DNA of 64,000 nt, taken from NCBI RefSeq assembly GCF_041886205.1, contig NZ_CP169029.1. One strand, written 5' to 3'. The position numbers and the translations under genes are program-made. Shown here in pieces: positions 7,451-60,884 of this stretch (its first letter is position 1; each line of letters opens with the position of its first letter). The notes beneath the pieces were generated by a model. That model did no database searches, had not been told where the DNA came from, and worked only from the letters and a program-made list of their open reading frames with translations. The stretch is from Escherichia coli (lineage in GTDB: Bacteria; Pseudomonadota; Gammaproteobacteria; Enterobacterales; Enterobacteriaceae).

Positions 7451-7486
7451 AATAAAAAAGGCCCCCCGATTTGGGAGGCCTTATTG
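7451..7486 (-). terminator. pheA attenuator terminator hairpin (minus strand)
   Basis: On minus strand ggcctcccaaatcggggggcc followed by ttttttatt, between pheL stop and pheA start. Confidence 0.7.
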
Positions 7487-7528
7487 TTCGTCTTCGCATT
7501 CTGTTTCACACGACGAAACGCCTCCCAT

Positions 7529-7576
7529 TCAGGGGAAGGTAAAAAAGAATGCGAAGAAAAACGGTGTGTGTTTCAT
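7529..7576 (-). CDS. pheL: pheA leader peptide (15 aa, 7 Phe codons), translated here as MKHTPFFFAFFFTFP
   Basis: Manual translation of the minus strand; not in the ORF track because it is below the length cut-off. Confidence 0.85.
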   Translation of the reverse strand: MKHTPFFFAFFFTFP

Positions 7577-7631
7577 GTTTGTTTCCTTAAGTGACTTTAG
7601 TACAGTACCCGTACTGTTTTCACGCTGTCAA

Positions 7632-10872: not shown

Positions 10873-10934
10873 CCTAAAGAATCAAGACGATCCGGTACGC
10901 GTGATTTTCTTTTCACATTAATCTGGTCAATAAC

Positions 10935-10964
10935 CTTGAATAATTGAGGGATGACCTCATTTAA
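10935..10964 (+). promoter_or_regulatory. Sigma-32 heat-shock promoter of clpB
   Basis: cttgaa ... cctcatttaa, matching the CTTGAA-N13-15-CCCCATNT class, about 40-65 nt upstream of clpB. Confidence 0.6.
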
Positions 10965-11001
10965 TCTCCAGTAGCAACTTTGATCCGTTATGGGAGGAGT
11001 T

Positions 11002-13575
11002 ATGCGTCTGGATCGTCTTACTAATAAATTCCAGCTTGCTCTTGCCGATGCCCAATCACTTGCACTCGGGCACGACAACCAATTTATCGAACCACTTCAT
11101 TTAATGAGCGCCCTGCTGAATCAGGAAGGGGGTTCGGTTAGTCCTTTATTAACATCCGCTGGCATAAATGCTGGCCAGTTGCGCACAGATATCAATCAGG
11201 CATTAAATCGTTTACCGCAGGTTGAAGGTACTGGTGGTGATGTCCAGCCATCACAGGATCTGGTGCGCGTTCTTAATCTTTGCGACAAGCTGGCGCAAAA
11301 ACGTGGTGATAACTTTATCTCGTCAGAACTGTTCGTTCTGGCGGCACTTGAGTCTCGCGGCACGCTGGCCGACATCCTGAAAGCAGCAGGGGCGACCACC
11401 GCCAACATTACTCAAGCGATTGAACAAATGCGTGGAGGTGAAAGCGTGAACGATCAAGGTGCTGAAGACCAACGTCAGGCTTTGAAAAAATATACCATCG
11501 ACCTTACCGAACGAGCCGAACAGGGCAAACTCGATCCGGTGATTGGTCGTGATGAAGAAATTCGCCGTACCATTCAGGTGCTGCAACGTCGTACTAAAAA
11601 TAACCCGGTACTGATTGGTGAACCCGGCGTCGGTAAAACTGCCATCGTTGAAGGTCTGGCGCAGCGTATTATCAACGGCGAAGTGCCGGAAGGATTGAAA
11701 GGCCGCCGCGTGCTGGCGCTGGATATGGGCGCGCTGGTGGCTGGGGCGAAATATCGCGGTGAGTTTGAAGAACGTTTAAAAGGCGTGCTTAACGATCTTG
11801 CCAAACAGGAAGGCAACGTCATCCTGTTTATCGACGAATTACATACCATGGTCGGCGCGGGTAAAGCTGATGGCGCAATGGACGCCGGAAACATGCTGAA
11901 ACCGGCGCTGGCGCGTGGTGAATTGCACTGCGTAGGTGCCACGACGCTTGACGAATATCGCCAGTACATTGAAAAAGATGCTGCGCTGGAACGTCGTTTC
12001 CAGAAAGTGTTTGTTGCCGAGCCTTCTGTTGAAGATACCATTGCGATTCTGCGTGGCCTGAAAGAACGTTACGAATTGCACCACCATGTGCAAATTACTG
12101 ACCCGGCAATTGTTGCAGCGGCGACGTTGTCTCATCGCTACATTGCTGACCGTCAGCTGCCGGATAAAGCCATCGACCTGATCGATGAAGCAGCATCCAG
12201 CATTCGTATGCAGATTGACTCAAAACCAGAAGAACTCGACCGACTCGATCGTCGTATCATCCAGCTCAAACTGGAACAACAGGCGTTAATGAAAGAGTCT
12301 GATGAAGCCAGTAAAAAACGCCTGGATATGCTCAACGAAGAACTGAGCGACAAAGAACGTCAGTACTCCGAGTTAGAAGAAGAGTGGAAAGCAGAGAAAG
12401 CATCGCTTTCTGGTACGCAGACCATTAAAGCGGAACTGGAACAGGCGAAAATCGCTATTGAACAGGCTCGCCGTGTGGGGGACCTGGCGCGGATGTCTGA
12501 ACTGCAATACGGCAAAATCCCGGAACTGGAAAAGCAACTGGAAGCCGCAACGCAGCTCGAAGGCAAAACTATGCGTCTGTTGCGTAATAAAGTGACCGAT
12601 GCCGAAATTGCTGAAGTGCTGGCGCGTTGGACTGGGATTCCGGTTTCTCGCATGATGGAAAGCGAGCGCGAAAAACTGCTGCGTATGGAGCAAGAACTGC
12701 ACCATCGCGTTATTGGTCAGAACGAAGCGGTTGATGCGGTATCTAACGCTATTCGTCGTAGCCGTGCGGGGCTGGCGGATCCAAATCGCCCGATTGGTTC
12801 ATTCCTGTTCCTCGGCCCAACGGGTGTGGGGAAAACAGAGCTTTGTAAGGCGCTGGCGAACTTTATGTTTGATAGCGACGAGGCGATGGTCCGTATCGAT
12901 ATGTCCGAGTTTATGGAGAAACACTCGGTGTCTCGTTTGGTTGGTGCGCCTCCGGGATATGTCGGTTATGAAGAAGGTGGCTACCTGACCGAAGCGGTGC
13001 GTCGTCGTCCGTATTCCGTCATCCTGCTGGATGAAGTGGAAAAAGCGCATCCGGATGTCTTCAACATTCTGTTGCAGGTACTGGATGATGGGCGTCTGAC
13101 TGACGGGCAGGGGAGAACGGTCGACTTCCGTAATACGGTTGTCATTATGACCTCTAACCTCGGTTCCGATTTGATTCAGGAACGCTTCGGTGAACTGGAT
13201 TATGCGCACATGAAAGAGCTGGTGCTCGGTGTGGTAAGCCATAACTTCCGTCCGGAATTCATTAACCGTATCGATGAAGTGGTGGTTTTCCATCCGCTGG
13301 GTGAACAGCACATTGCGTCGATTGCGCAGATTCAGTTGAAACGTCTGTACAAACGTCTGGAAGAACGTGGTTATGAAATCCACATTTCTGACGAGGCGCT
13401 GAAACTGCTGAGCGAGAACGGTTACGATCCGGTCTATGGTGCACGTCCTCTGAAACGTGCAATTCAGCAGCAGATCGAAAACCCGCTGGCACAGCAAATA
13501 CTGTCTGGTGAATTGGTTCCGGGTAAAGTGATTCGCCTGGAAGTTAATGAAGACCGGATTGTCGCCGTCCAGTAA
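11002..13575 (+). CDS. clpB: Chaperone/disaggregase ClpB (two AAA+ modules)
   Basis: 857-aa product [18 protein letters not shown]...; two Walker A motifs ([16 protein letters not shown]); RBS gggaggag. ORF track starts 12 nt upstream at an in-frame ATG. Confidence 0.95.
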
Positions 13576-14018: not shown

Positions 14019-15560
<1,542 letters not shown>

Positions 15561-15645
15561 CCTTAAAGAAGCGTACTTTGCAGTGCTCACACAGATTGTC
15601 TGATAGAAAGTGAAAAGCAAGGCGTCTTGCGAAGCAGACTGATAC

Positions 15646-15721
15646 GTCCCCTTCGTCTAGAGGCCCAGGACACCGCCCTTTCACGGCGGTAACAGGGGTT
15701 CGAATCCCCTAGGGGACGCCA
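15646..15721 (+). tRNA. gltW: tRNA-Glu (anticodon UUC) in the 16S-23S spacer
   Basis: GTCCCCTTCGTCTAGAGGCCCAGGACACCGCCCTTTCACGGCGG...GGGGACGCCA; anticodon loop CTTTCAC; 76 nt including CCA. Confidence 0.95.
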
Positions 15722-15914
15722 CTTGCTGGTTTGTGAGTGAAAGTCACCTGCCTTAATATCTCAAAACTCATCTTCGGGTGATGTTTGAGATATTTGCTCT
15801 TTAAAAATCTGGATCAAGCTGAAAATTGAAACACTGAACAACGAAAGTTGTTCGTGAGTCTCTCAAATTTTCGCAACACGATGATGAATCGCAAGAAACA
15901 TCTTCGGGTTGTGA

Positions 15915-18818
<2,904 letters not shown>

Positions 18819-18911
18819 ACAACGCCGAAGATGTTTTGGCGGATTGAGAGAAGATTTTCAGCCTGATACAGATTAAATCAGAACGCAGAAGCGGTCTGAT
18901 AAAACAGAATT

Positions 18912-19031
18912 TGCCTGGCGGCCTTAGCGCGGTGGTCCCACCTGACCCCATGCCGAACTCAGAAGTGAAACGCCGTAGCGCCGATGGTAGTGTGGGGTCT
19001 CCCCATGCGAGAGTAGGGAACTGCCAGGCAT
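18912..19031 (+). rRNA. rrfG: 5S ribosomal RNA
   Basis: TGCCTGGCGGCC...GGGAACTGCCAGGCAT, 120 nt. Confidence 0.95.
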
Positions 19032-27685: not shown

Positions 27686-28375
27686 TTACTCACTCTCTGC
27701 CGGTAATACTGGCATCCAGTCAATCGGCGTCTCGCCATGTTGTTCCAGCCACTGATTTGCCAGCACAAAATGGTTACAGCCAAAGAATCCACGATGCGCA
27801 GAAAGCGGTGACGGATGCGGTGCTTTCAGTACGTGATGGCGTTGCTTATCTATAATCGCCCCTTTCTTTTGCGCATGCGATCCCCACAACAAAAACACCA
27901 CGCCTTCGCGATGCTGGTTAATCAGGCTGATGACTTTATCGGTGAAGGTCTCCCAGCCGAGGCTGGCATGGGAATGCGCCTGACCTGCGCGTACCGTCAA
28001 CACAGTATTGAGTAGCAGAACGCCCTGACGCGCCCAGCTTTCAAGATAACCATGATTAGGGCGGGTGAAGCCCGGAATAGTATTTTCCAGCTCTTTATAC
28101 ATATTCAGCAGTGACGGAGGAGTGGCGATTCCGGGGCGAACGGAAAATGCCAGCCCATGCGCCTGTCCCGGTCCGTGATAAGGATCCTGGCCGAGAATCA
28201 CCACTTTAACGTCACCCAACTCGGTAAAGCGGAACGCGTTAAAGACATCTTTTTGTGGCGGATAGATAGTGACGCCGGACTGCCGCTCGCTGGCGACGGT
28301 CTGAAGGGTATTAAGAAAATAGGGTTGCTTCTTCTCTTCAGCCAGCACGTCATGCCAGGTTAATTCGTTAGCCAT
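27686..28375 (-). CDS. ung: Uracil-DNA glycosylase
   Basis: 229-aa [23 protein letters not shown]... with GQDPYHGP motif. Confidence 0.96.
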
Positions 28376-28504: not shown

Positions 28505-28571
28505 TTGATGTAAAACAATAAAATCCATTTGCGACCATACTTGATGTGTGGTTTTTGTTGATTTAAATCAA
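28505..28571 (+). promoter_or_regulatory. Two FNR/CRP-family boxes upstream of grcA
   Basis: ttgatttaaatcaa (28558..28571, perfect TTGAT-N4-ATCAA) and ttgatgtaaaacaa (28505..28518). Confidence 0.6.
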
Positions 28572-28678
28572 AGATTCAAGGGTGTTTGAGGAGTATATAT
28601 ACACTCAAGCAACAATGGTTTTACCAATTGGCCGCGACAGGCTGAACAAATCAAATAATTTTGCCGGGGAGGCATCAC

Positions 28679-29062
28679 ATGATTACAGGTATCCAGATTA
28701 CTAAAGCCGCTAACGACGATCTGCTGAACTCTTTCTGGCTGCTGGACAGCGAAAAAGGCGAAGCACGTTGCATCGTTGCGAAAGCAGGTTTTGCAGAAGA
28801 TGAAGTGGTTGCAGTAAGCAAACTGGGTGACATTGAGTACCGTGAAGTTCCAGTAGAAGTGAAACCAGAAGTTCGCGTTGAAGGTGGTCAGCACCTGAAC
28901 GTTAACGTTCTGCGTCGTGAAACTCTGGAAGATGCAGTTAAGCATCCGGAAAAATATCCGCAGCTGACCATCCGTGTATCCGGATATGCAGTTCGCTTTA
29001 ACTCTCTGACTCCGGAACAGCAACGCGACGTTATTGCTCGTACCTTTACTGAAAGCCTGTAA
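28679..29062 (+). CDS. grcA: Autonomous glycyl radical cofactor GrcA (YfiD)
   Basis: 127-aa product [22 protein letters not shown]... with C-terminal glycyl-radical motif (RVSGYAV). Confidence 0.94.
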
Positions 29063-30746: not shown

Positions 30747-30844
30747 GCCGGATGCGGCGTGAACGCCTTATCCGGCCTACAAGATCGTGCAAATTCAATA
30801 TATTGCATGAGCCACGTAGGCCTGATAAGCGTAGCGCATCAGGC
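30747..30844. repeat. BIME: two inverted REP elements
   Basis: gccggatgcggcgtgaacgccttatccggcctac (30747..30780) and inverted copy gtaggcctgataagcgtagcgcatcaggc (30816..30844). Confidence 0.65.
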
Positions 30845-36373: not shown

Positions 36374-37329
36374 TGAAGCAACTTTGGTTTGCCATGTCAT
36401 TAGTGACAGGTAGCCTGTTATTCTCTGCTAACGCCTCGGCCACTCCCGCGTCCGGGGCGTTATTACAGCAGATGAACCTGGCCAGTCAGTCACTGAATTA
36501 CGAGCTGTCATTCATCAGCATCAATAAACAGGGTGTTGAGTCTCTGCGTTATCGACATGCACGCCTCGATAACCGTCCTCTTGCACAATTGTTGCAAATG
36601 GATGGCCCGCGCCGGGAAGTGGTACAGCGCGGCAATGAAATCAGCTATTTTGAACCGGGACTTGAACCGTTCACGCTTAATGGCGATTACATTGTTGATT
36701 CTCTGCCATCGCTCATCTATACCGATTTCAAACGCCTTTCTCCTTACTACGACTTCATCTCCGTCGGGCGCACGCGTATTGCTGATCGTCTTTGCGAAGT
36801 CATTCGCGTGGTTGCCCGAGATGGTACACGCTACAGCTACATCGTGTGGATGGACACTGAATCGAAATTACCGATGAGGGTTGATCTCCTTGATCGCGAT
36901 GGTGAAACGCTGGAACAATTTCGCGTGATTGCTTTTAACGTCAATCAGGATATCAGCAGCAGTATGCAGACGTTGGCGAAGGCAAATTTGCCGCCGTTGC
37001 TTTCTGTTCCTGTAGGTGAAAAAGCTAAATTCAGCTGGACGCCAACCTGGTTGCCACAGGGTTTTAGCGAAGTTTCCAGTAGTCGACGTCCGCTACCGAC
37101 GATGGACAACATGCCTATCGAATCACGTCTCTATTCCGACGGATTATTCAGCTTCTCGGTAAACGTTAACCGCGCTACGCCATCGAGCACCGATCAGATG
37201 TTGCGCACCGGACGCAGAACCGTCAGTACAAGCGTACGTGATAACGCCGAAATCACCATTGTCGGTGAACTGCCGCCGCAAACGGCGAAACGCATTGCCG
37301 AGAATATTAAGTTCGGGGCAGCGCAATGA
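36373..37329 (+). CDS. rseB: Sigma-E regulatory protein RseB (periplasmic)
   Basis: 318-aa ORF with signal peptide; coupled to rseA (1-nt overlap). Confidence 0.93.
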   Translation: MKQLWFAMSLVTGSLLFSANASATPASGALLQQMNLASQSLNYELSFISINKQGVESLRYRHARLDNRPLAQLLQMDGPRREVVQRGNEISYFEPGLEPFTLNGDYIVDSLPSLIYTDFKRLSPYYDFISVGRTRIADRLCEVIRVVARDGTRYSYIVWMDTESKLPMRVDLLDRDGETLEQFRVIAFNVNQDISSSMQTLAKANLPPLLSVPVGEKAKFSWTPTWLPQGFSEVSSSRRPLPTMDNMPIESRLYSDGLFSFSVNVNRATPSSTDQMLRTGRRTVSTSVRDNAEITIVGELPPQTAKRIAENIKFGAAQ

Positions 37330-37805
37330 TCAAAGAGTGGGCTACCGTCGTCTCCTGGCAAAACGGGCAGGCGCTGGTCAGTTGTGATGTTAAAGCCTCA
37401 TGCAGCAGCTGCGCTTCACGCGCCGGTTGCGGTAGCCGCGTGTTGAATAAACTTGGCCCGCAAACCACGCATACCATTGTCGTACCCTGTGATGAGCCGT
37501 TAGTGCCGGGGCAAAAAGTGGAATTGGGGATCGCCGAAGGCAGCCTGCTTAGCTCCGCATTACTGGTTTATATGTCGCCGCTGGTGGGATTATTCCTCAT
37601 CGCTTCGCTATTTCAGCTACTCTTTGCTTCTGACGTCGCAGCATTATGTGGTGCGGTCCTCGGCGGTATTGGCGGGTTCCTGATTGCGCGTGGCTACTCG
37701 CGTAAGTTTGCTGCCCGGGCAGAATGGCAACCGATCATCTTAAGCGTGGCATTGCCGCCTGGCCTTGTGCGATTTGAAACATCTTCGGAAGACGCGAGCC
37801 AGTGA
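37326..37805 (+). CDS. rseC: Sigma-E regulatory protein RseC (SoxR-reducing system family)
   Basis: 159-aa ORF with Cys-rich N-terminus and two TM segments; 4-nt overlap with rseB. Confidence 0.9.
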   Translation: MIKEWATVVSWQNGQALVSCDVKASCSSCASRAGCGSRVLNKLGPQTTHTIVVPCDEPLVPGQKVELGIAEGSLLSSALLVYMSPLVGLFLIASLFQLLFASDVAALCGAVLGGIGGFLIARGYSRKFAARAEWQPIILSVALPPGLVRFETSSEDASQ

Positions 37806-38002
37806 TTTCACTGGCTTTGTTGCATTTTGCATAACAAATGCGAGGACGTTTCCAGATACCACAATCCATACGGTATGAACATTTCCTCGCCTCAATGTTG
37901 TAGTGTAGAATGCGGCGTTTCTATTAATACAGACGTTAAGCTCAGAACAGCGACTTCTAAAAGCCTGGTTAACCGGGCATTAAGGCACAATAATCATACT
38001 TT

Positions 38003-39802
<1,800 letters not shown>

Positions 39803-40838: not shown

Positions 40839-40937
40839 TTATTTATGAGATAAATCTCCCGTGGCTAACGACATCCCCCGTCGTTGTGTATAGAATATTC
40901 CCCCGAAGTTTAAGGTTGGCACCTCCAGGTTGCCACG

Positions 40938-41031
40938 GCACACGAAACAGCGTTGGTCCCCATATACCGCTAAACTGAAACTGCAGCGAAGCAGTTAGCA
41001 GAGCCATGTATATCAGGTCTGTTTCGTGTGC
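40938..41031 (+). promoter_or_regulatory. rnc leader: 13-bp perfect inverted repeat able to form a long-range stem, consistent with the RNase III autoregulatory cleavage site
   Basis: gcacacgaaacag (40938..40950) and ctgtttcgtgtgc (41019..41031) read directly. Confidence 0.5.
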
Positions 41032-41034
41032 TGA

Positions 41035-42647
<1,613 letters not shown>

Positions 42648-58111: not shown

Positions 58112-59302
58112 TCACAGCACCTTATGCGGGCCAAAGCATTCGTAATGAATGTTTTCCTGCTTCACGCCCAGATCCACTAACTGTTTCGCGGCAAACTGCA
58201 TGAAGCCAACCGGGCCGCAGAGATAGAACTGCATTGTCGGATCGCTGAACGCACCTTCCAGTTTGCTCAAATCCATCAGACCTTCGCTATCAAACTGACC
58301 TTTAGCGCGATCGGCTTCGCTCGGCTGACGATACCAGGTGTGCGCGGTAAAGCGCGGCAGTGACTGCCCCAGTTCCTTAACTTCATCGGCAAAGGCGTGA
58401 ACATCGCCATTTTCTGCCGCATGGAACCAGTTCACTTGTGCTGTGTGGCCTGCTTTTGCCAGCGTGTCGAGCATTGCCAGCATTGGCGTTTGACCAACAC
58501 CGGCAGAGATTAACGTCACTGGTGTGTCATCTGCGACAGCCATAAAGAAATCACCTGCCGGAGCGGCCAGTTTCACGACATCGCCAACATTGGCGTGATT
58601 GTGCAACCAGTTGGATACCTGCCCACCCTCTTCGCGTTTCACCGCAATACGATAGCCTTTGCCATCCGGTTTGCGAGTCAAAGAGTACTGACGAATTTCC
58701 TGATGCGGGAAACCTTCCGGCTTCAGCCAGACGCCGAGATATTGCCCCGGACGGTATTCTGCCACTGCACCACCGTCGACCGGCTCCAGTTCGAAGCTGG
58801 TGATAAGCGCGCTGCGCGGTGTTTTAGCCACAATGCGGAAATCGCGAGTACCTTCCCAACCACCGGCTTTGCTGGCGTTTTCGTTATAGATTTCCGCCTC
58901 GCGATTGATAAATACATTAGCCAGTACACCATAGGCTTTACCCCACGCGTCCAGCACTTCCTGCCCCGGGCTGAACATTTCGTCCAGCGTTGCCAACAGG
59001 TGTTCACCGACGATGTTGTACTGTTCCGGTTTGATCTGGAAACTGGTGTGCTTCTGCGCGATTTTTTCTACCGCTGGCAGCAGCGCAGGCAGGTTTTCAA
59101 TATTACTGGCGTAGGCGGCAATAGCGTTAAACAGGGCTTCACGTTGATCGCCATTACGCTGGTTACTCATGTTAAAAATTTCTTTGAGTTCTGGGTTATG
59201 AGTAAACATACGGTCGTAGAAATGGGCGGTTAACTTTGGCCCTGTTTCTACCAGTAAAGGGATGGTGGCTTTTACTGTAGCGATGGTTTGAGCGTCAAGC
59301 AT
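58112..59302 (-). CDS. hmp: Flavohemoglobin (nitric oxide dioxygenase)
   Basis: 396-aa [20 protein letters not shown]...; globin domain plus FAD/NAD reductase domain. Confidence 0.95.
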
Positions 59303-59321
59303 ATGGTCTTCCTTTTTTTTG

Positions 59322-59352
59322 CATCTTAATTGATGTATCTCAAATGCATCTT
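59322..59352. promoter_or_regulatory. NsrR-type operator overlapping the hmp promoter
   Basis: gcatcttaattgatgtatctcaaatgcatctt, AT-rich imperfect palindrome aagatgcatttgagatacatc on the hmp strand. Confidence 0.5.
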
Positions 59353-59630
59353 ATAAAAAATAGCCCTGCAATGTAAATGGTTCTTTGGTGTTTTTCAGAA
59401 AGAATGTGATGAAGTGAAAAATTTGCATCACAAACCTGAAAAGAAATCCGTTTCCGGTTGCAAGCTCTTTATTCTCCAAAGCCTTGCGTAGCCTGAAGGT
59501 AATCGTTTGCGTAAATTCCTTTGTCAAGACCTGTTATCGCACAATGATTCGGTTATACTGTTCGCCGTTGTCCAACAGGACCGCCTATAAAGGCCAAAAA
59601 TTTTATTGTTAGCTGAGTCAGGAGATGCGG

Positions 59631-60884
59631 ATGTTAAAGCGTGAAATGAACATTGCCGATTATGATGCCGAACTGTGGCAGGCTATAGAGCAGGAAAAAG
59701 TACGTCAGGAAGAGCACATCGAACTGATCGCCTCCGAAAACTACACCAGCCCGCGCGTAATGCAGGCGCAGGGTTCTCAGCTGACCAACAAATATGCTGA
59801 AGGTTATCCGGGCAAACGCTACTACGGCGGTTGCGAGTATGTTGATATCGTTGAACAACTGGCGATCGATCGTGCGAAAGAACTGTTCGGCGCTGACTAC
59901 GCTAACGTCCAGCCGCACTCCGGCTCCCAGGCTAACTTTGCGGTCTACACCGCGCTGCTGGAACCAGGTGATACCGTTCTGGGTATGAACCTGGCGCATG
60001 GCGGTCACCTGACTCACGGTTCTCCGGTTAACTTCTCCGGTAAACTGTACAACATCGTTCCTTACGGTATCGATGCTACCGGTCATATCGACTACGCCGA
60101 TCTGGAAAAACAAGCCAAAGAACACAAGCCGAAAATGATTATCGGTGGTTTCTCTGCATATTCCGGCGTGGTGGACTGGGCGAAAATGCGTGAAATCGCT
60201 GACAGCATCGGTGCTTACCTGTTCGTTGATATGGCGCACGTTGCGGGCCTGGTTGCTGCTGGCGTCTACCCGAACCCGGTTCCTCATGCTCACGTTGTTA
60301 CTACCACCACTCACAAAACCCTGGCGGGTCCGCGCGGCGGCCTGATCCTGGCGAAAGGTGGTAGCGAAGAGCTGTACAAAAAACTGAACTCTGCCGTTTT
60401 CCCTGGTGGTCAGGGCGGTCCGTTGATGCACGTAATCGCCGGTAAAGCGGTTGCTCTGAAAGAAGCGATGGAGCCTGAGTTCAAAACTTACCAGCAGCAG
60501 GTCGCGAAAAACGCTAAAGCGATGGTAGAAGTGTTCCTCGAGCGCGGCTACAAAGTGGTTTCCGGCGGCACTGATAACCACCTGTTCCTGGTTGATCTGG
60601 TTGATAAAAACCTGACCGGTAAAGAAGCAGACGCCGCTCTGGGCCGTGCTAACATCACCGTCAACAAAAACAGCGTACCGAACGATCCGAAGAGCCCGTT
60701 TGTGACCTCCGGTATTCGCGTGGGTACTCCGGCGATTACGCGTCGCGGCTTCAAAGAAGCAGAAGCGAAAGAACTGGCTGGCTGGATGTGTGACGTGCTG
60801 GACAGCATCAATGATGAAGCCGTTATCGAGCGCATCAAAGGTAAAGTTCTCGACATCTGCGCACGTTTCCCGGTTTACGCATAA
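59631..60884 (+). CDS. glyA: Serine hydroxymethyltransferase
   Basis: 417-aa product [18 protein letters not shown]...; PLP-binding [13 protein letters not shown] motif. Confidence 0.96.

What the first reader, a model, noticed from the sequence alone, without database searches (positions are those of the whole stretch)
59303..59630. Divergent hmp / glyA control region with an NsrR-type palindrome over the hmp promoter
The 328-bp region between divergently transcribed hmp and glyA contains the AT-rich imperfect palindrome aagatgcatttgagatacatc about 20-50 bp upstream of the hmp start codon, the expected position for the NO-sensing repressor NsrR. glyA is known to be regulated by MetR and PurR from the same region, but I did not verify those sites base by base.
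Basis: partly seen in the sequence, partly recalled or inferred. Interest (0 to 1): 0.25.

Follow-up and report, generated by a model that had tools for sequence, protein, structure and literature searches.

The report
Known NsrR operator at hmp promoter
This is the well-studied control region between the E. coli nitric-oxide-detoxifying gene hmp and the serine hydroxymethyltransferase gene glyA. The flagged palindrome is the published binding site of the NO-sensing repressor NsrR, so the finding is correct but ordinary.

Summary
That spacer is identical to E. coli K-12 apart from one extra A in a poly-A run.

It belongs to the 23-bp 11-1-11 site 59330-59352, which is letter for letter the ChIP-seq-positive hmp NsrR site published for E. 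coli CFT073.

- **Motif match:** A matrix built from the 25 other distinct published NsrR sites scores it 18.4 bits. That is the best hit in the 64-kb window; the next best is 12.3.
- **Conservation:** In 78 other Enterobacteriaceae species the best NsrR hit in the hmp-glyA spacer sits at the same place. The arms are conserved and the centre varies.
- **Position:** The site covers the hmp -10 hexamer and the start region, which implies repression by promoter occlusion.
- **Symmetry:** Palindromy alone (7 of 11) is no better than chance.
- **Other regulators:** The site overlaps a 9/10 FNR box, mostly confined to Escherichia and some Citrobacter. The PurR box of glyA (59497-59512) matches the published site exactly. 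Two conserved MetR-like sites lie at 59415-59427 and 59437-59449.

Novelty: none. Interest: low.

The parts
58112..59302 (-). hmp (hmpA), NO-inducible flavohaemoglobin / NO dioxygenase CDS
   Evidence: ORF. NCBIfam NF009805 at 629 bits, cut-off 432. 394/396 identical to K-12 Hmp.
59303..59630 (.). 328-bp hmp-glyA divergent control region
   Evidence: Identical to K-12 MG1655 apart from one extra A. glyA lies divergent from hmp in all 78 Enterobacteriaceae loci with enough upstream DNA, with spacers of 272-346 bp.
59330..59352 (-). NsrR operator, 11-1-11 inverted repeat AAGATGCATTT-G-AGATACATCAA.
   Evidence: Identical to the ChIP-seq-positive hmp site in PMC5320621 Table 4. Leave-one-out matrix score 18.4 bits, top of the window. 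Best matrix hit at the same position in 79 of 79 orthologous spacers, at least 17.9 bits against at most 10.1 elsewhere. Arm conservation 0.975 and 0.915, centre 0.63, downstream UTR 0.45.
59330..59343 (-). FNR-like box TTGAGATACATCAA (9 of 10 to TTGAT-N4-ATCAA), nested in the NsrR right arm
   Evidence: Pattern scan. A box with at most 1 mismatch occurs in only 11 of 79 species spacers, in Escherichia and some Citrobacter. Myers 2013 predicts an FNR site at hmp but found no ChIP-seq peak.
59348..59355 (-). hmp -10 region. The candidates are TATAAG (59355-59350, 16-bp spacer) and TAAGAT (59353-59348, 18-bp spacer).
   Evidence: The consensus scan reports TTTACA-18-TAAGAT. Shimada 2014 lists TTTACA-16-TATAAG for hmp. 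TATAAGATGCAT is nearly invariant in 79 species. The start site was not determined here.
59372..59377 (-). hmp -35 hexamer TTTACA
   Evidence: Mean conservation 1.0.
59317..59327 (-). Second, weak NsrR half-site-like copy AAGATGCAAAA in the hmp 5' UTR
   Evidence: 8 of 11 to AAGATGCATTT. Listed as a weak 11-bp motif (score 5.00) under the hmp ChIP peak in PMC5320621. Poorly conserved, 0.52, so probably not required.
59415..59427 (+). MetR-like site A, TGAAAAATTTGCA (7 of 8 to TGAA-N5-TTCA)
   Evidence: At most 1 mismatch at the aligned position in 63 of 79 species. Conservation 0.87. Assigned by inference; the footprint coordinates could not be read.
59437..59449 (+). MetR-like site B, TGAAAAGAAATCC (6 of 8), centred 22 bp from site A
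   Evidence: Conservation 0.96. CTGAAAAGAAATCC is nearly invariant. Two tandem MetR sites in this spacer are reported in the literature.
59497..59512 (+). PurR operator of glyA, AGGTAATCGTTTGCGT
   Evidence: Identical in sequence and in offset (119-134 bp upstream of the glyA ATG) to the glyA row of Table 1 in Cho 2011, PMC3159470. Conservation 0.92.
59521..59559 (+). glyA core promoter region: TTGTCA (59521-59526), AATGAT (59543-59548), TATACT (59554-59559)
   Evidence: The scan reports TTGTCA-16-AATGAT. Conservation is TTGTCA 0.98, TATACT 0.985, AATGAT 0.71. Which hexamer pair is used was not resolved.
59631..60884 (+). glyA, serine hydroxymethyltransferase CDS
   Evidence: ORF. NF000586 at 679 bits. 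415/417 identical to K-12.

Best explanation
The 23-bp element at 59330-59352 is the operator of NsrR, the Rrf2-family [Fe-S] repressor that senses nitric oxide. It lies on the sigma-70 promoter of hmp. A holo-NsrR dimer binds the two 11-bp arms, which cover the 3' part of the -10 hexamer, the transcription start and the first dozen or so transcribed bases. This keeps RNA polymerase off the promoter. Nitrosylation of the cluster by NO releases NsrR and hmp is induced. In Escherichia the right arm also reads as a near-consensus FNR box, so the same DNA can be a second, anaerobic repression site. The rest of the spacer serves glyA and also modulates hmp. A PurR box lies just upstream of the glyA -35 region, and two tandem MetR-type sites lie in the middle of the spacer. 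Shown here: the sequence identity to the published sites, the motif score, the position relative to promoter-like hexamers, and the conservation. Taken from the literature: NsrR occupancy in vivo, the NO response, and PurR, MetR and FNR regulation. Inferred: the exact start site, occlusion as the mechanism, and the MetR site coordinates.
For: The site is identical to the ChIP-seq-positive hmp site TTGATGTATCTCAAATGCATCTT. The ChIP peak is centred 34 bp upstream of hmp, with the motif AAGATGCATTT at 44 bp. A leave-one-out matrix scores the site 18.4 bits, the best of about 64,000 positions, with 12.3 next. In the window's own spacer and in those of 78 other species, the top NsrR hit is at the same place, centred 29-50 bp from the ATG (mode 38). 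Scores there are 17.9-30.1 bits, against at most 10.1 elsewhere in the same spacers. Conservation follows the pattern of a dimer operator: arms 0.975 and 0.915, centre 0.63, flanking UTR 0.45. The site overlaps -10 candidates paired with an invariant TTTACA -35. Rodionov 2005 predicted the same conserved site upstream of hmp in enterobacteria. The PurR box is identical to the published motif, and the literature reports two MetR sites in this spacer.
Against: The palindromic symmetry (7 of 11) is at chance level. The left arm coincides with the -10 hexamer, so part of its conservation would be expected without any repressor. The matrix comes from sites called with a related matrix in E. coli, so it is not fully independent even with hmp left out. 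nsrR itself is not in the window. The hmp start site and the MetR footprint coordinates could not be checked in the primary papers, which are not held.
Confidence: 0.95

Rival explanations
1. The element is primarily an FNR operator (TTGAGATACATCAA) that represses hmp anaerobically, and NsrR is secondary.
For: It matches the FNR consensus at 9 of 10 positions, at 59330-59343. Only 5 such boxes with at most 1 mismatch occur in the 64 kb, and two of those are the boxes upstream of grcA. Myers 2013 found a threshold-passing predicted FNR site at hmp and cites prior in vitro binding. The literature describes FNR as a repressor of hmp.
Against: FNR ChIP-seq gave no peak at hmp, so it is a 'silent' site, whereas NsrR ChIP-seq was positive. 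The FNR box is present with at most 1 mismatch in only 11 of 79 species, while the NsrR motif is present in all 79. Rodionov 2005 reached the same conclusion. The left arm AAGATGCATTT lies outside the FNR box yet is the best conserved part. The two readings can coexist; FNR alone cannot account for the element.
Confidence: 0.04
2. There is no operator. The sequence is just the hmp core promoter (-10 and start region), and its resemblance to a palindrome is a chance product of AT-rich DNA.
For: Palindromy of 7 in 11 is at chance level. The left arm overlaps TATAAG/TAAGAT. The spacer is AT-rich, at 39% GC.
Against: A matrix built only from other regulon members picks this site as the top hit in the window and in every orthologous spacer. 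The right arm ATACATC lies downstream of the -10, where no promoter element is needed, and is 0.915 conserved against 0.45 for the adjacent UTR. Published ChIP-seq shows occupancy.
Confidence: 0.01
3. The same DNA also acts as a second promoter directed towards glyA (TTGATG-16-TATAAA, 59330-59357, + strand), back to back with the hmp promoter, so that NsrR or FNR binding would also affect a long glyA transcript.
For: Shimada 2014 lists TTGATG-16-TATAAA as the predicted constitutive promoter on the glyA side of this spacer.
Against: This is a consensus prediction only. It lies about 275 bp upstream of the glyA ATG, whereas the conserved glyA promoter elements and the PurR and MetR sites lie downstream of it. 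The local scan did not report it. No transcript evidence was available.
Confidence: 0.05

Closest known systems
NsrR operator of hmp in E. coli K-12 / CFT073 (Bodenmiller & Spiro 2006; Partridge et al. 2009; Mehta et al. 2015, PMC5320621)
   Same: The 23-bp sequence, the flanking genes and the promoter context are all identical.
   Different: Only one extra A in the poly-A run of the hmp 5' UTR (A8 against A7 in K-12). This shifts the site 1 bp further from the ATG.
NsrR operator of ytfE (AAGATGCATTTAAAATGCATCTT), the near-perfect reference palindrome
   Same: The left arm AAGATGCATTT is identical, and so is the 11-1-11 architecture.
   Different: The hmp right arm matches only 7 of 11 (AGATACATCAA against AAATGCATCTT). 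The leave-one-out score is 18.4 bits against 31.0 for ytfE.
hmp NsrR sites of other Enterobacteriaceae (Citrobacter, Enterobacter, Klebsiella, Raoultella, Kluyvera, Buttiauxella and others)
   Same: The position relative to the hmp ATG and the -10 is the same, with the same GATGyAT-N5-ATrCAT core.
   Different: The identical 23-mer shared by the window and three of the four other Escherichia loci scores lowest of all 79 (17.9 bits against a median of 25.7). The fourth Escherichia locus, L003, has GATATACATCAA, a perfect FNR box, and scores above it. Most other genera have AAATACATC in place of GAGATACATC and lack the FNR box.
FNR box of the hmp promoter (Poole et al. 1996; Cruz-Ramos et al. 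2002)
   Same: TTGAGATACATCAA is nested in the same DNA.
   Different: It binds a different protein family (CRP/FNR), is not bound in vivo according to ChIP-seq, and has a narrow phylogenetic range.
PurR operator and tandem MetR sites of glyA (Steiert 1990/1992; Lorenz & Stauffer 1995/1996; Cho 2011)
   Same: The PurR box is identical in sequence and offset. Two MetR-type sites 22 bp apart fit the published description of two tandem sites.
   Different: The MetR coordinates given here are inferred and were not checked against the footprints.

Membership tests
NsrR (Rrf2) operator, enterobacterial 11-1-11 type | Match to the 11-1-11 inverted-repeat motif (AAGATGCATTT-N-AAATGCATCTT) | tested here: met
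   18 of 22 arm positions match. Leave-one-out matrix score 18.4 bits, top of the 64 kb with 12.3 next, reached in 2 of 100 window shuffles.
NsrR (Rrf2) operator, enterobacterial 11-1-11 type | Position overlapping the core promoter of an NO-stress gene, as expected for a repressor | tested here: met
   It covers the -10 candidates TATAAG/TAAGAT and the region just downstream, 30-52 bp upstream of the hmp ATG. The start site itself was not determined.
NsrR (Rrf2) operator, enterobacterial 11-1-11 type | Conservation of the site in orthologous promoters, with conserved arms and a variable centre | tested here: met
   The top matrix hit is at the same place in 79 of 79 spacers. Arms 0.975 and 0.915, centre 0.63.
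NsrR (Rrf2) operator, enterobacterial 11-1-11 type | Occupancy by NsrR in vivo or in vitro | not testable with these tools
   The published ChIP-seq peak in CFT073 is on the identical 23-mer. This was not measured for this strain.
NsrR (Rrf2) operator, enterobacterial 11-1-11 type | NO-dependent derepression, and presence of nsrR in the genome | not testable with these tools
   nsrR lies outside the 64-kb window. The regulation is known from the literature.
FNR box | TTGAT-N4-ATCAA dyad | tested here: met
   TTGAGATACATCAA matches 9 of 10.
FNR box | Conservation in orthologous promoters | tested here: not met
   At most 1 mismatch in only 11 of 79 spacers, in Escherichia and some Citrobacter.
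FNR box | In vivo occupancy by FNR | not testable with these tools
   Myers 2013 reports no ChIP-seq peak at hmp despite a predicted site.
PurR operator | 16-bp dyad ACGCAAACGTTTGCGT | tested here: met
   AGGTAATCGTTTGCGT matches 13 of 16. It is one of only 2 sites with at most 3 mismatches in the 64 kb; the other is the purL operator. It is identical to the published glyA motif.
PurR operator | Conservation in orthologues | tested here: met
   Mean 0.92. The half CGTTTGCGTAA is nearly invariant.
MetR (LysR-type) site | TGAA-N5-TTCA dyad | tested here: inconclusive
   Site A matches 7 of 8 and site B 6 of 8. Sites with at most 1 mismatch occur 26 times in the 64 kb, which predicts about 0.13 in 328 bp.
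MetR (LysR-type) site | Two tandem sites about two helical turns apart, conserved | tested here: met
   The centres are 22 bp apart. Conservation is 0.87 and 0.96 inside a 36-bp conserved block.
MetR (LysR-type) site | Agreement with the DNase I footprints of Lorenz & Stauffer 1995 | not tested
   The paper is not held.

The most novel reading that the evidence does not exclude
In Escherichia (and, more weakly, some Citrobacter) the right arm of the ancestral hmp NsrR operator has been rewritten from AAATACATC to GAGATACATCAA. This creates an FNR box at the cost of NsrR motif quality. The identical 23-mer shared by the window and three other Escherichia loci scores lowest of 79 Enterobacteriaceae species (17.9 bits against a median of 25.7). 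If this lowers NsrR affinity, E. coli hmp would be a deliberately leaky NsrR target with an added anaerobic input. About 4% of E. coli genomes lack the exact 32-mer around the site, and the one such strain examined (NCTC10444, GAAATACATC) would be a natural reversion towards tighter NsrR control. The existence and narrow range of the FNR box are already published (Rodionov 2005). Only the quantitative ranking is new.
Probability: 0.35. Interest if true: 0.2.

Novelty: already known. Interest (0 to 1): 0.05.

Why it matters
The region links nitric-oxide defence (hmp) to one-carbon, methionine and purine metabolism (glyA) through four regulators in 328 bp, and it is a textbook case of a shared divergent control region. 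Confirming it here adds nothing new biologically. It does show that the first-stage reader can recognise a real operator from sequence alone. It also gives base-level coordinates and a 79-species footprint for anyone annotating this window.

Tried and rejected
- **Inverted-repeat search:** The repeat finder on the spacer did not report the NsrR dyad, because the arms share no 6-base exact seed. A direct count showed the palindromy is at chance level. I therefore dropped symmetry as evidence and relied on the motif score, conservation and published ChIP.
- **Primary papers:** I tried to read the papers on the hmp start site, the FNR footprint, the NsrR site and the MetR footprints (PMC1347358, PMC126088, PMC177144, PMC4909240, PMC4288677). 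None is held. A full-text search for the site sequences themselves found only unrelated papers. The supplements of the MetR regulon paper give only regulon scores, not site sequences.
- **Fur:** A Fur-box scan (19-mer, up to 7 mismatches) found nothing in the spacer.
- **RNA elements:** Rfam found nothing in the spacer at gathering thresholds, so a structured RNA element is not indicated.
- **glyA -10 hexamer:** The scan's AATGAT is less conserved than TATACT 6 bp further downstream. I left the glyA -10 assignment open.

Full report
**What is there.** NCBIfam assigns the two proteins to NO-inducible flavohemoprotein (629 bits, cut-off 432) and serine hydroxymethyltransferase (679 bits). They are 394/396 and 415/417 identical to the K-12 proteins. 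A 528-bp stretch centred on the spacer is found once in 5425 of 5426 complete E. coli genomes, always under hmpA and glyA annotations, with 99.8% as the best identity. The spacer is identical to K-12 MG1655 apart from one extra A in the poly-A run just upstream of the hmp ribosome-binding site. In K-12 the neighbours are glnB and glrR on the hmp side and yphH on the glyA side.

**The observation.** The 21-mer AAGATGCATTTGAGATACATC occurs once, at 59332-59352 on the hmp strand, which is 30-50 bp upstream of the hmp ATG. It is part of a 23-bp 11-1-11 element at 59330-59352, AAGATGCATTT-G-AGATACATCAA. As a palindrome it is unremarkable. Only 7 of 11 arm positions are complementary. Six such dyads occur in the spacer against about three expected in shuffles, and they occur 8.9 times per kb across the window. 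The repeat finder did not report it.

**Why it is the NsrR site.** Table 4 of Mehta et al. 2015 (PMC5320621) lists 27 NsrR 11-1-11 sites in E. coli CFT073. The hmp row, TTGATGTATCTCAAATGCATCTT with ChIP-seq positive, is the plus-strand sequence of 59330-59352 letter for letter. Their peak table places the ChIP summit 34 bp upstream of hmp. It names AAGATGCATTT (44 bp upstream) and a weaker AAGATGCAAAA (19 bp upstream) as 11-bp motifs. Both are present here, each 1 bp further from the ATG because of the extra A.

I built a symmetrised weight matrix from the other sites in that table, leaving hmp out and counting one duplicated sequence once. I then scanned the whole window with it. The hmp site scores 18.4 bits, the best of about 64,000 positions, with 12.3 as the next best. 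Only 2 of 100 Markov shuffles of the whole window reach that score.

**Independent evidence from other species.** A scan of one genome per species returned 80 Enterobacteriaceae hmp loci with 81-99% protein identity. All 78 with enough upstream DNA have glyA divergent from hmp, with spacers of 272-346 bp. With the leave-one-out matrix, the best hit in every one of the 79 spacers is at the same place. Its centre lies 29-50 bp from the hmp ATG (mode 38) and it scores 17.9-30.1 bits (median 25.7). The best hit elsewhere in the same spacers never exceeds 10.1 bits.

In a MAFFT alignment the two arm cores are 0.975 (GATGCAT) and 0.915 (ATACATC) conserved. The five central bases are 0.63 conserved, and the 5' UTR just downstream is 0.45. 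This is the pattern expected of an operator for a dimeric protein. The right arm lies downstream of the -10, where promoter function alone would not require conservation. Rodionov et al. 2005 predicted the same conserved site upstream of hmp, with the consensus gATGyAT-N5-ATrCATc.

**How it most likely works.** The invariant TTTACA at 59377-59372 pairs with TATAAG (59355-59350, 16-bp spacer; Shimada 2014) or with TAAGAT (59353-59348, 18-bp spacer). On either reading the NsrR site covers the 3' part of the -10 hexamer, the expected start (about 59341-59343, inferred) and the first dozen or so transcribed bases.

The mechanism is therefore promoter occlusion by holo-NsrR. It is relieved when NO destroys or nitrosylates the Fe-S cluster, as described in the literature. 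The sequence, position and conservation are shown here. Occupancy and the NO response come from the literature. Occlusion and the exact start site are inferred.

**The overlapping FNR box.** TTGAGATACATCAA (59330-59343) matches TTGAT-N4-ATCAA at 9 of 10 positions and is nested in the NsrR right arm. Myers et al. 2013 found that hmp has a threshold-passing predicted FNR site and FNR-dependent expression but no FNR ChIP-seq peak. They suggested that silent sites of this kind are masked by other proteins. NsrR sitting on the same DNA would fit that, which is my inference.

Across species, an FNR box with at most 1 mismatch is present in only 11 of 79 spacers. These are the Escherichia loci and some Citrobacter. 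This agrees with Rodionov's remark that the FNR site is confined to close relatives.

The identical 23-mer shared by the window and three of the four other Escherichia loci scores lowest of all 79 (17.9 bits). Most other genera have AAATACATC where these sequences have GAGATACATC. The fourth Escherichia locus, L003, has GATATACATCAA, which is a perfect FNR box. The exact 32-mer 59326-59357 is found in 5220 of 5426 E. coli genomes. One divergent strain, NCTC10444, carries GAAATACATC, which is closer to the NsrR consensus.

**The glyA side.**
- **PurR:** AGGTAATCGTTTGCGT at 59497-59512 is one of only two boxes in the window with at most 3 mismatches to the PurR consensus. It is identical in sequence and offset (119-134 bp upstream of the ATG) to the glyA entry of Cho et al. 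2011. It is 0.92 conserved. RegulonDB's evidence paper counts the glyA PurR site among those confirmed by independent cross-validation.
- **MetR:** The literature states that two tandem sites resembling TGAAnnTnnTTCA lie in this spacer, activating glyA and modulating hmp. The best candidates are TGAAAAATTTGCA (59415-59427, 7 of 8) and TGAAAAGAAATCC (59437-59449, 6 of 8). They are 22 bp apart, inside a 36-bp block that is 0.87-0.96 conserved. I could not check these against the footprints because the papers are not held.
- **Core promoter:** It lies in 59521-59559. TTGTCA and TATACT are almost invariant, whereas the AATGAT hexamer reported by the scan is only 0.71 conserved. The -10 assignment is left open.

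**Rivals.** FNR as the sole ligand fails on phylogenetic range and on ChIP data. A promoter-only or chance explanation fails on the cross-regulon matrix, the conserved right arm and the ChIP data. A glyA-directed promoter overlapping the site (TTGATG-16-TATAAA; Shimada 2014) is only a consensus prediction, but it is not excluded.

**Verdict.** Interest is low. The only mildly new point is quantitative: the hmp operator sequence shared by most Escherichia loci is the weakest NsrR match among 79 Enterobacteriaceae species, apparently because it doubles as an FNR box.

Noticed in passing
window 59313-59320: The poly-A run in the hmp 5' UTR, just upstream of the GGAAG Shine-Dalgarno, has 8 A where K-12 has 7. 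This is the only difference from K-12 in the whole spacer. Other Escherichia loci show both lengths: the site-to-ATG distance is 38 bp in some and 39 bp in others.
   Followed up: partly
window 59317-59327 (-): There is a second copy of AAGATGCA (AAGATGCAAAA), 25 bp downstream of the first, inside the hmp 5' UTR. Mehta 2015 lists it as a weak 11-bp NsrR motif. It is poorly conserved (0.52) and altered in NCTC10444 (AAGATAC).
   Followed up: partly
window 59330-59340; loci L002-L081: The 23-mer shared by the window and three other Escherichia loci has the lowest NsrR matrix score of 79 Enterobacteriaceae species (17.9 bits against a median of 25.7). Its right arm has diverged into an FNR box.
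   Followed up: yes
window 59601-59630: The last 30 nt of the glyA 5' UTR (GTTAGCTGAGTCAGGAGATGCGG and flanks) are 0.94 conserved across 79 species, well beyond the Shine-Dalgarno itself. No Rfam family matches. A translational or sRNA target role was not examined.
   Followed up: no
window 59543-59559: The glyA -10 is ambiguous. The consensus scan pairs TTGTCA with AATGAT, but AATGAT is variable across species (0.71), while TATACT 6 bp downstream is nearly invariant (0.985) and has no good -35 at 16-18 bp.
   Followed up: partly
window 49484-49499: The PurR box ACGCAAACGGTTTCGT lies 77 bp upstream of a 1295-aa ORF (49576-53463, purL by size and position). Its reverse complement is identical to the purL motif in Cho 2011 Table 1.
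   Followed up: partly
window 28505-28518 and 28558-28571: Two FNR boxes lie 53 bp apart (TTGATGTAAAACAA and the perfect TTGATTTAAATCAA), upstream of the ORF whose product includes [14 protein letters not shown]... (28661-29062, +). From memory, this is grcA/yfiD with its two known FNR sites. ung lies divergent at 27686-28375.
   Followed up: partly
window 59631-60884 and 58112-59302: GlyA differs from K-12 at M19I and Y413F, and Hmp at V246A and T371A. No complete RefSeq E. coli genome is 100% identical over the 528 bp tested (best 99.8%), so the source strain is a close but distinct E. coli/Shigella-type genome.
   Followed up: partly
window 7452-53944: Rfam gathering-threshold hits elsewhere in the window are all known enterobacterial elements: Phe leader (7452-7577), RyfD (10883-11021), an rRNA operon with an internal tRNA (14019-19029), ES036 (30781-30823), AsrC antisense of rseC (37290-38121), rncO (40905-41119), OhsC (44532-44596) and GlmY (53797-53944).
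   Followed up: no
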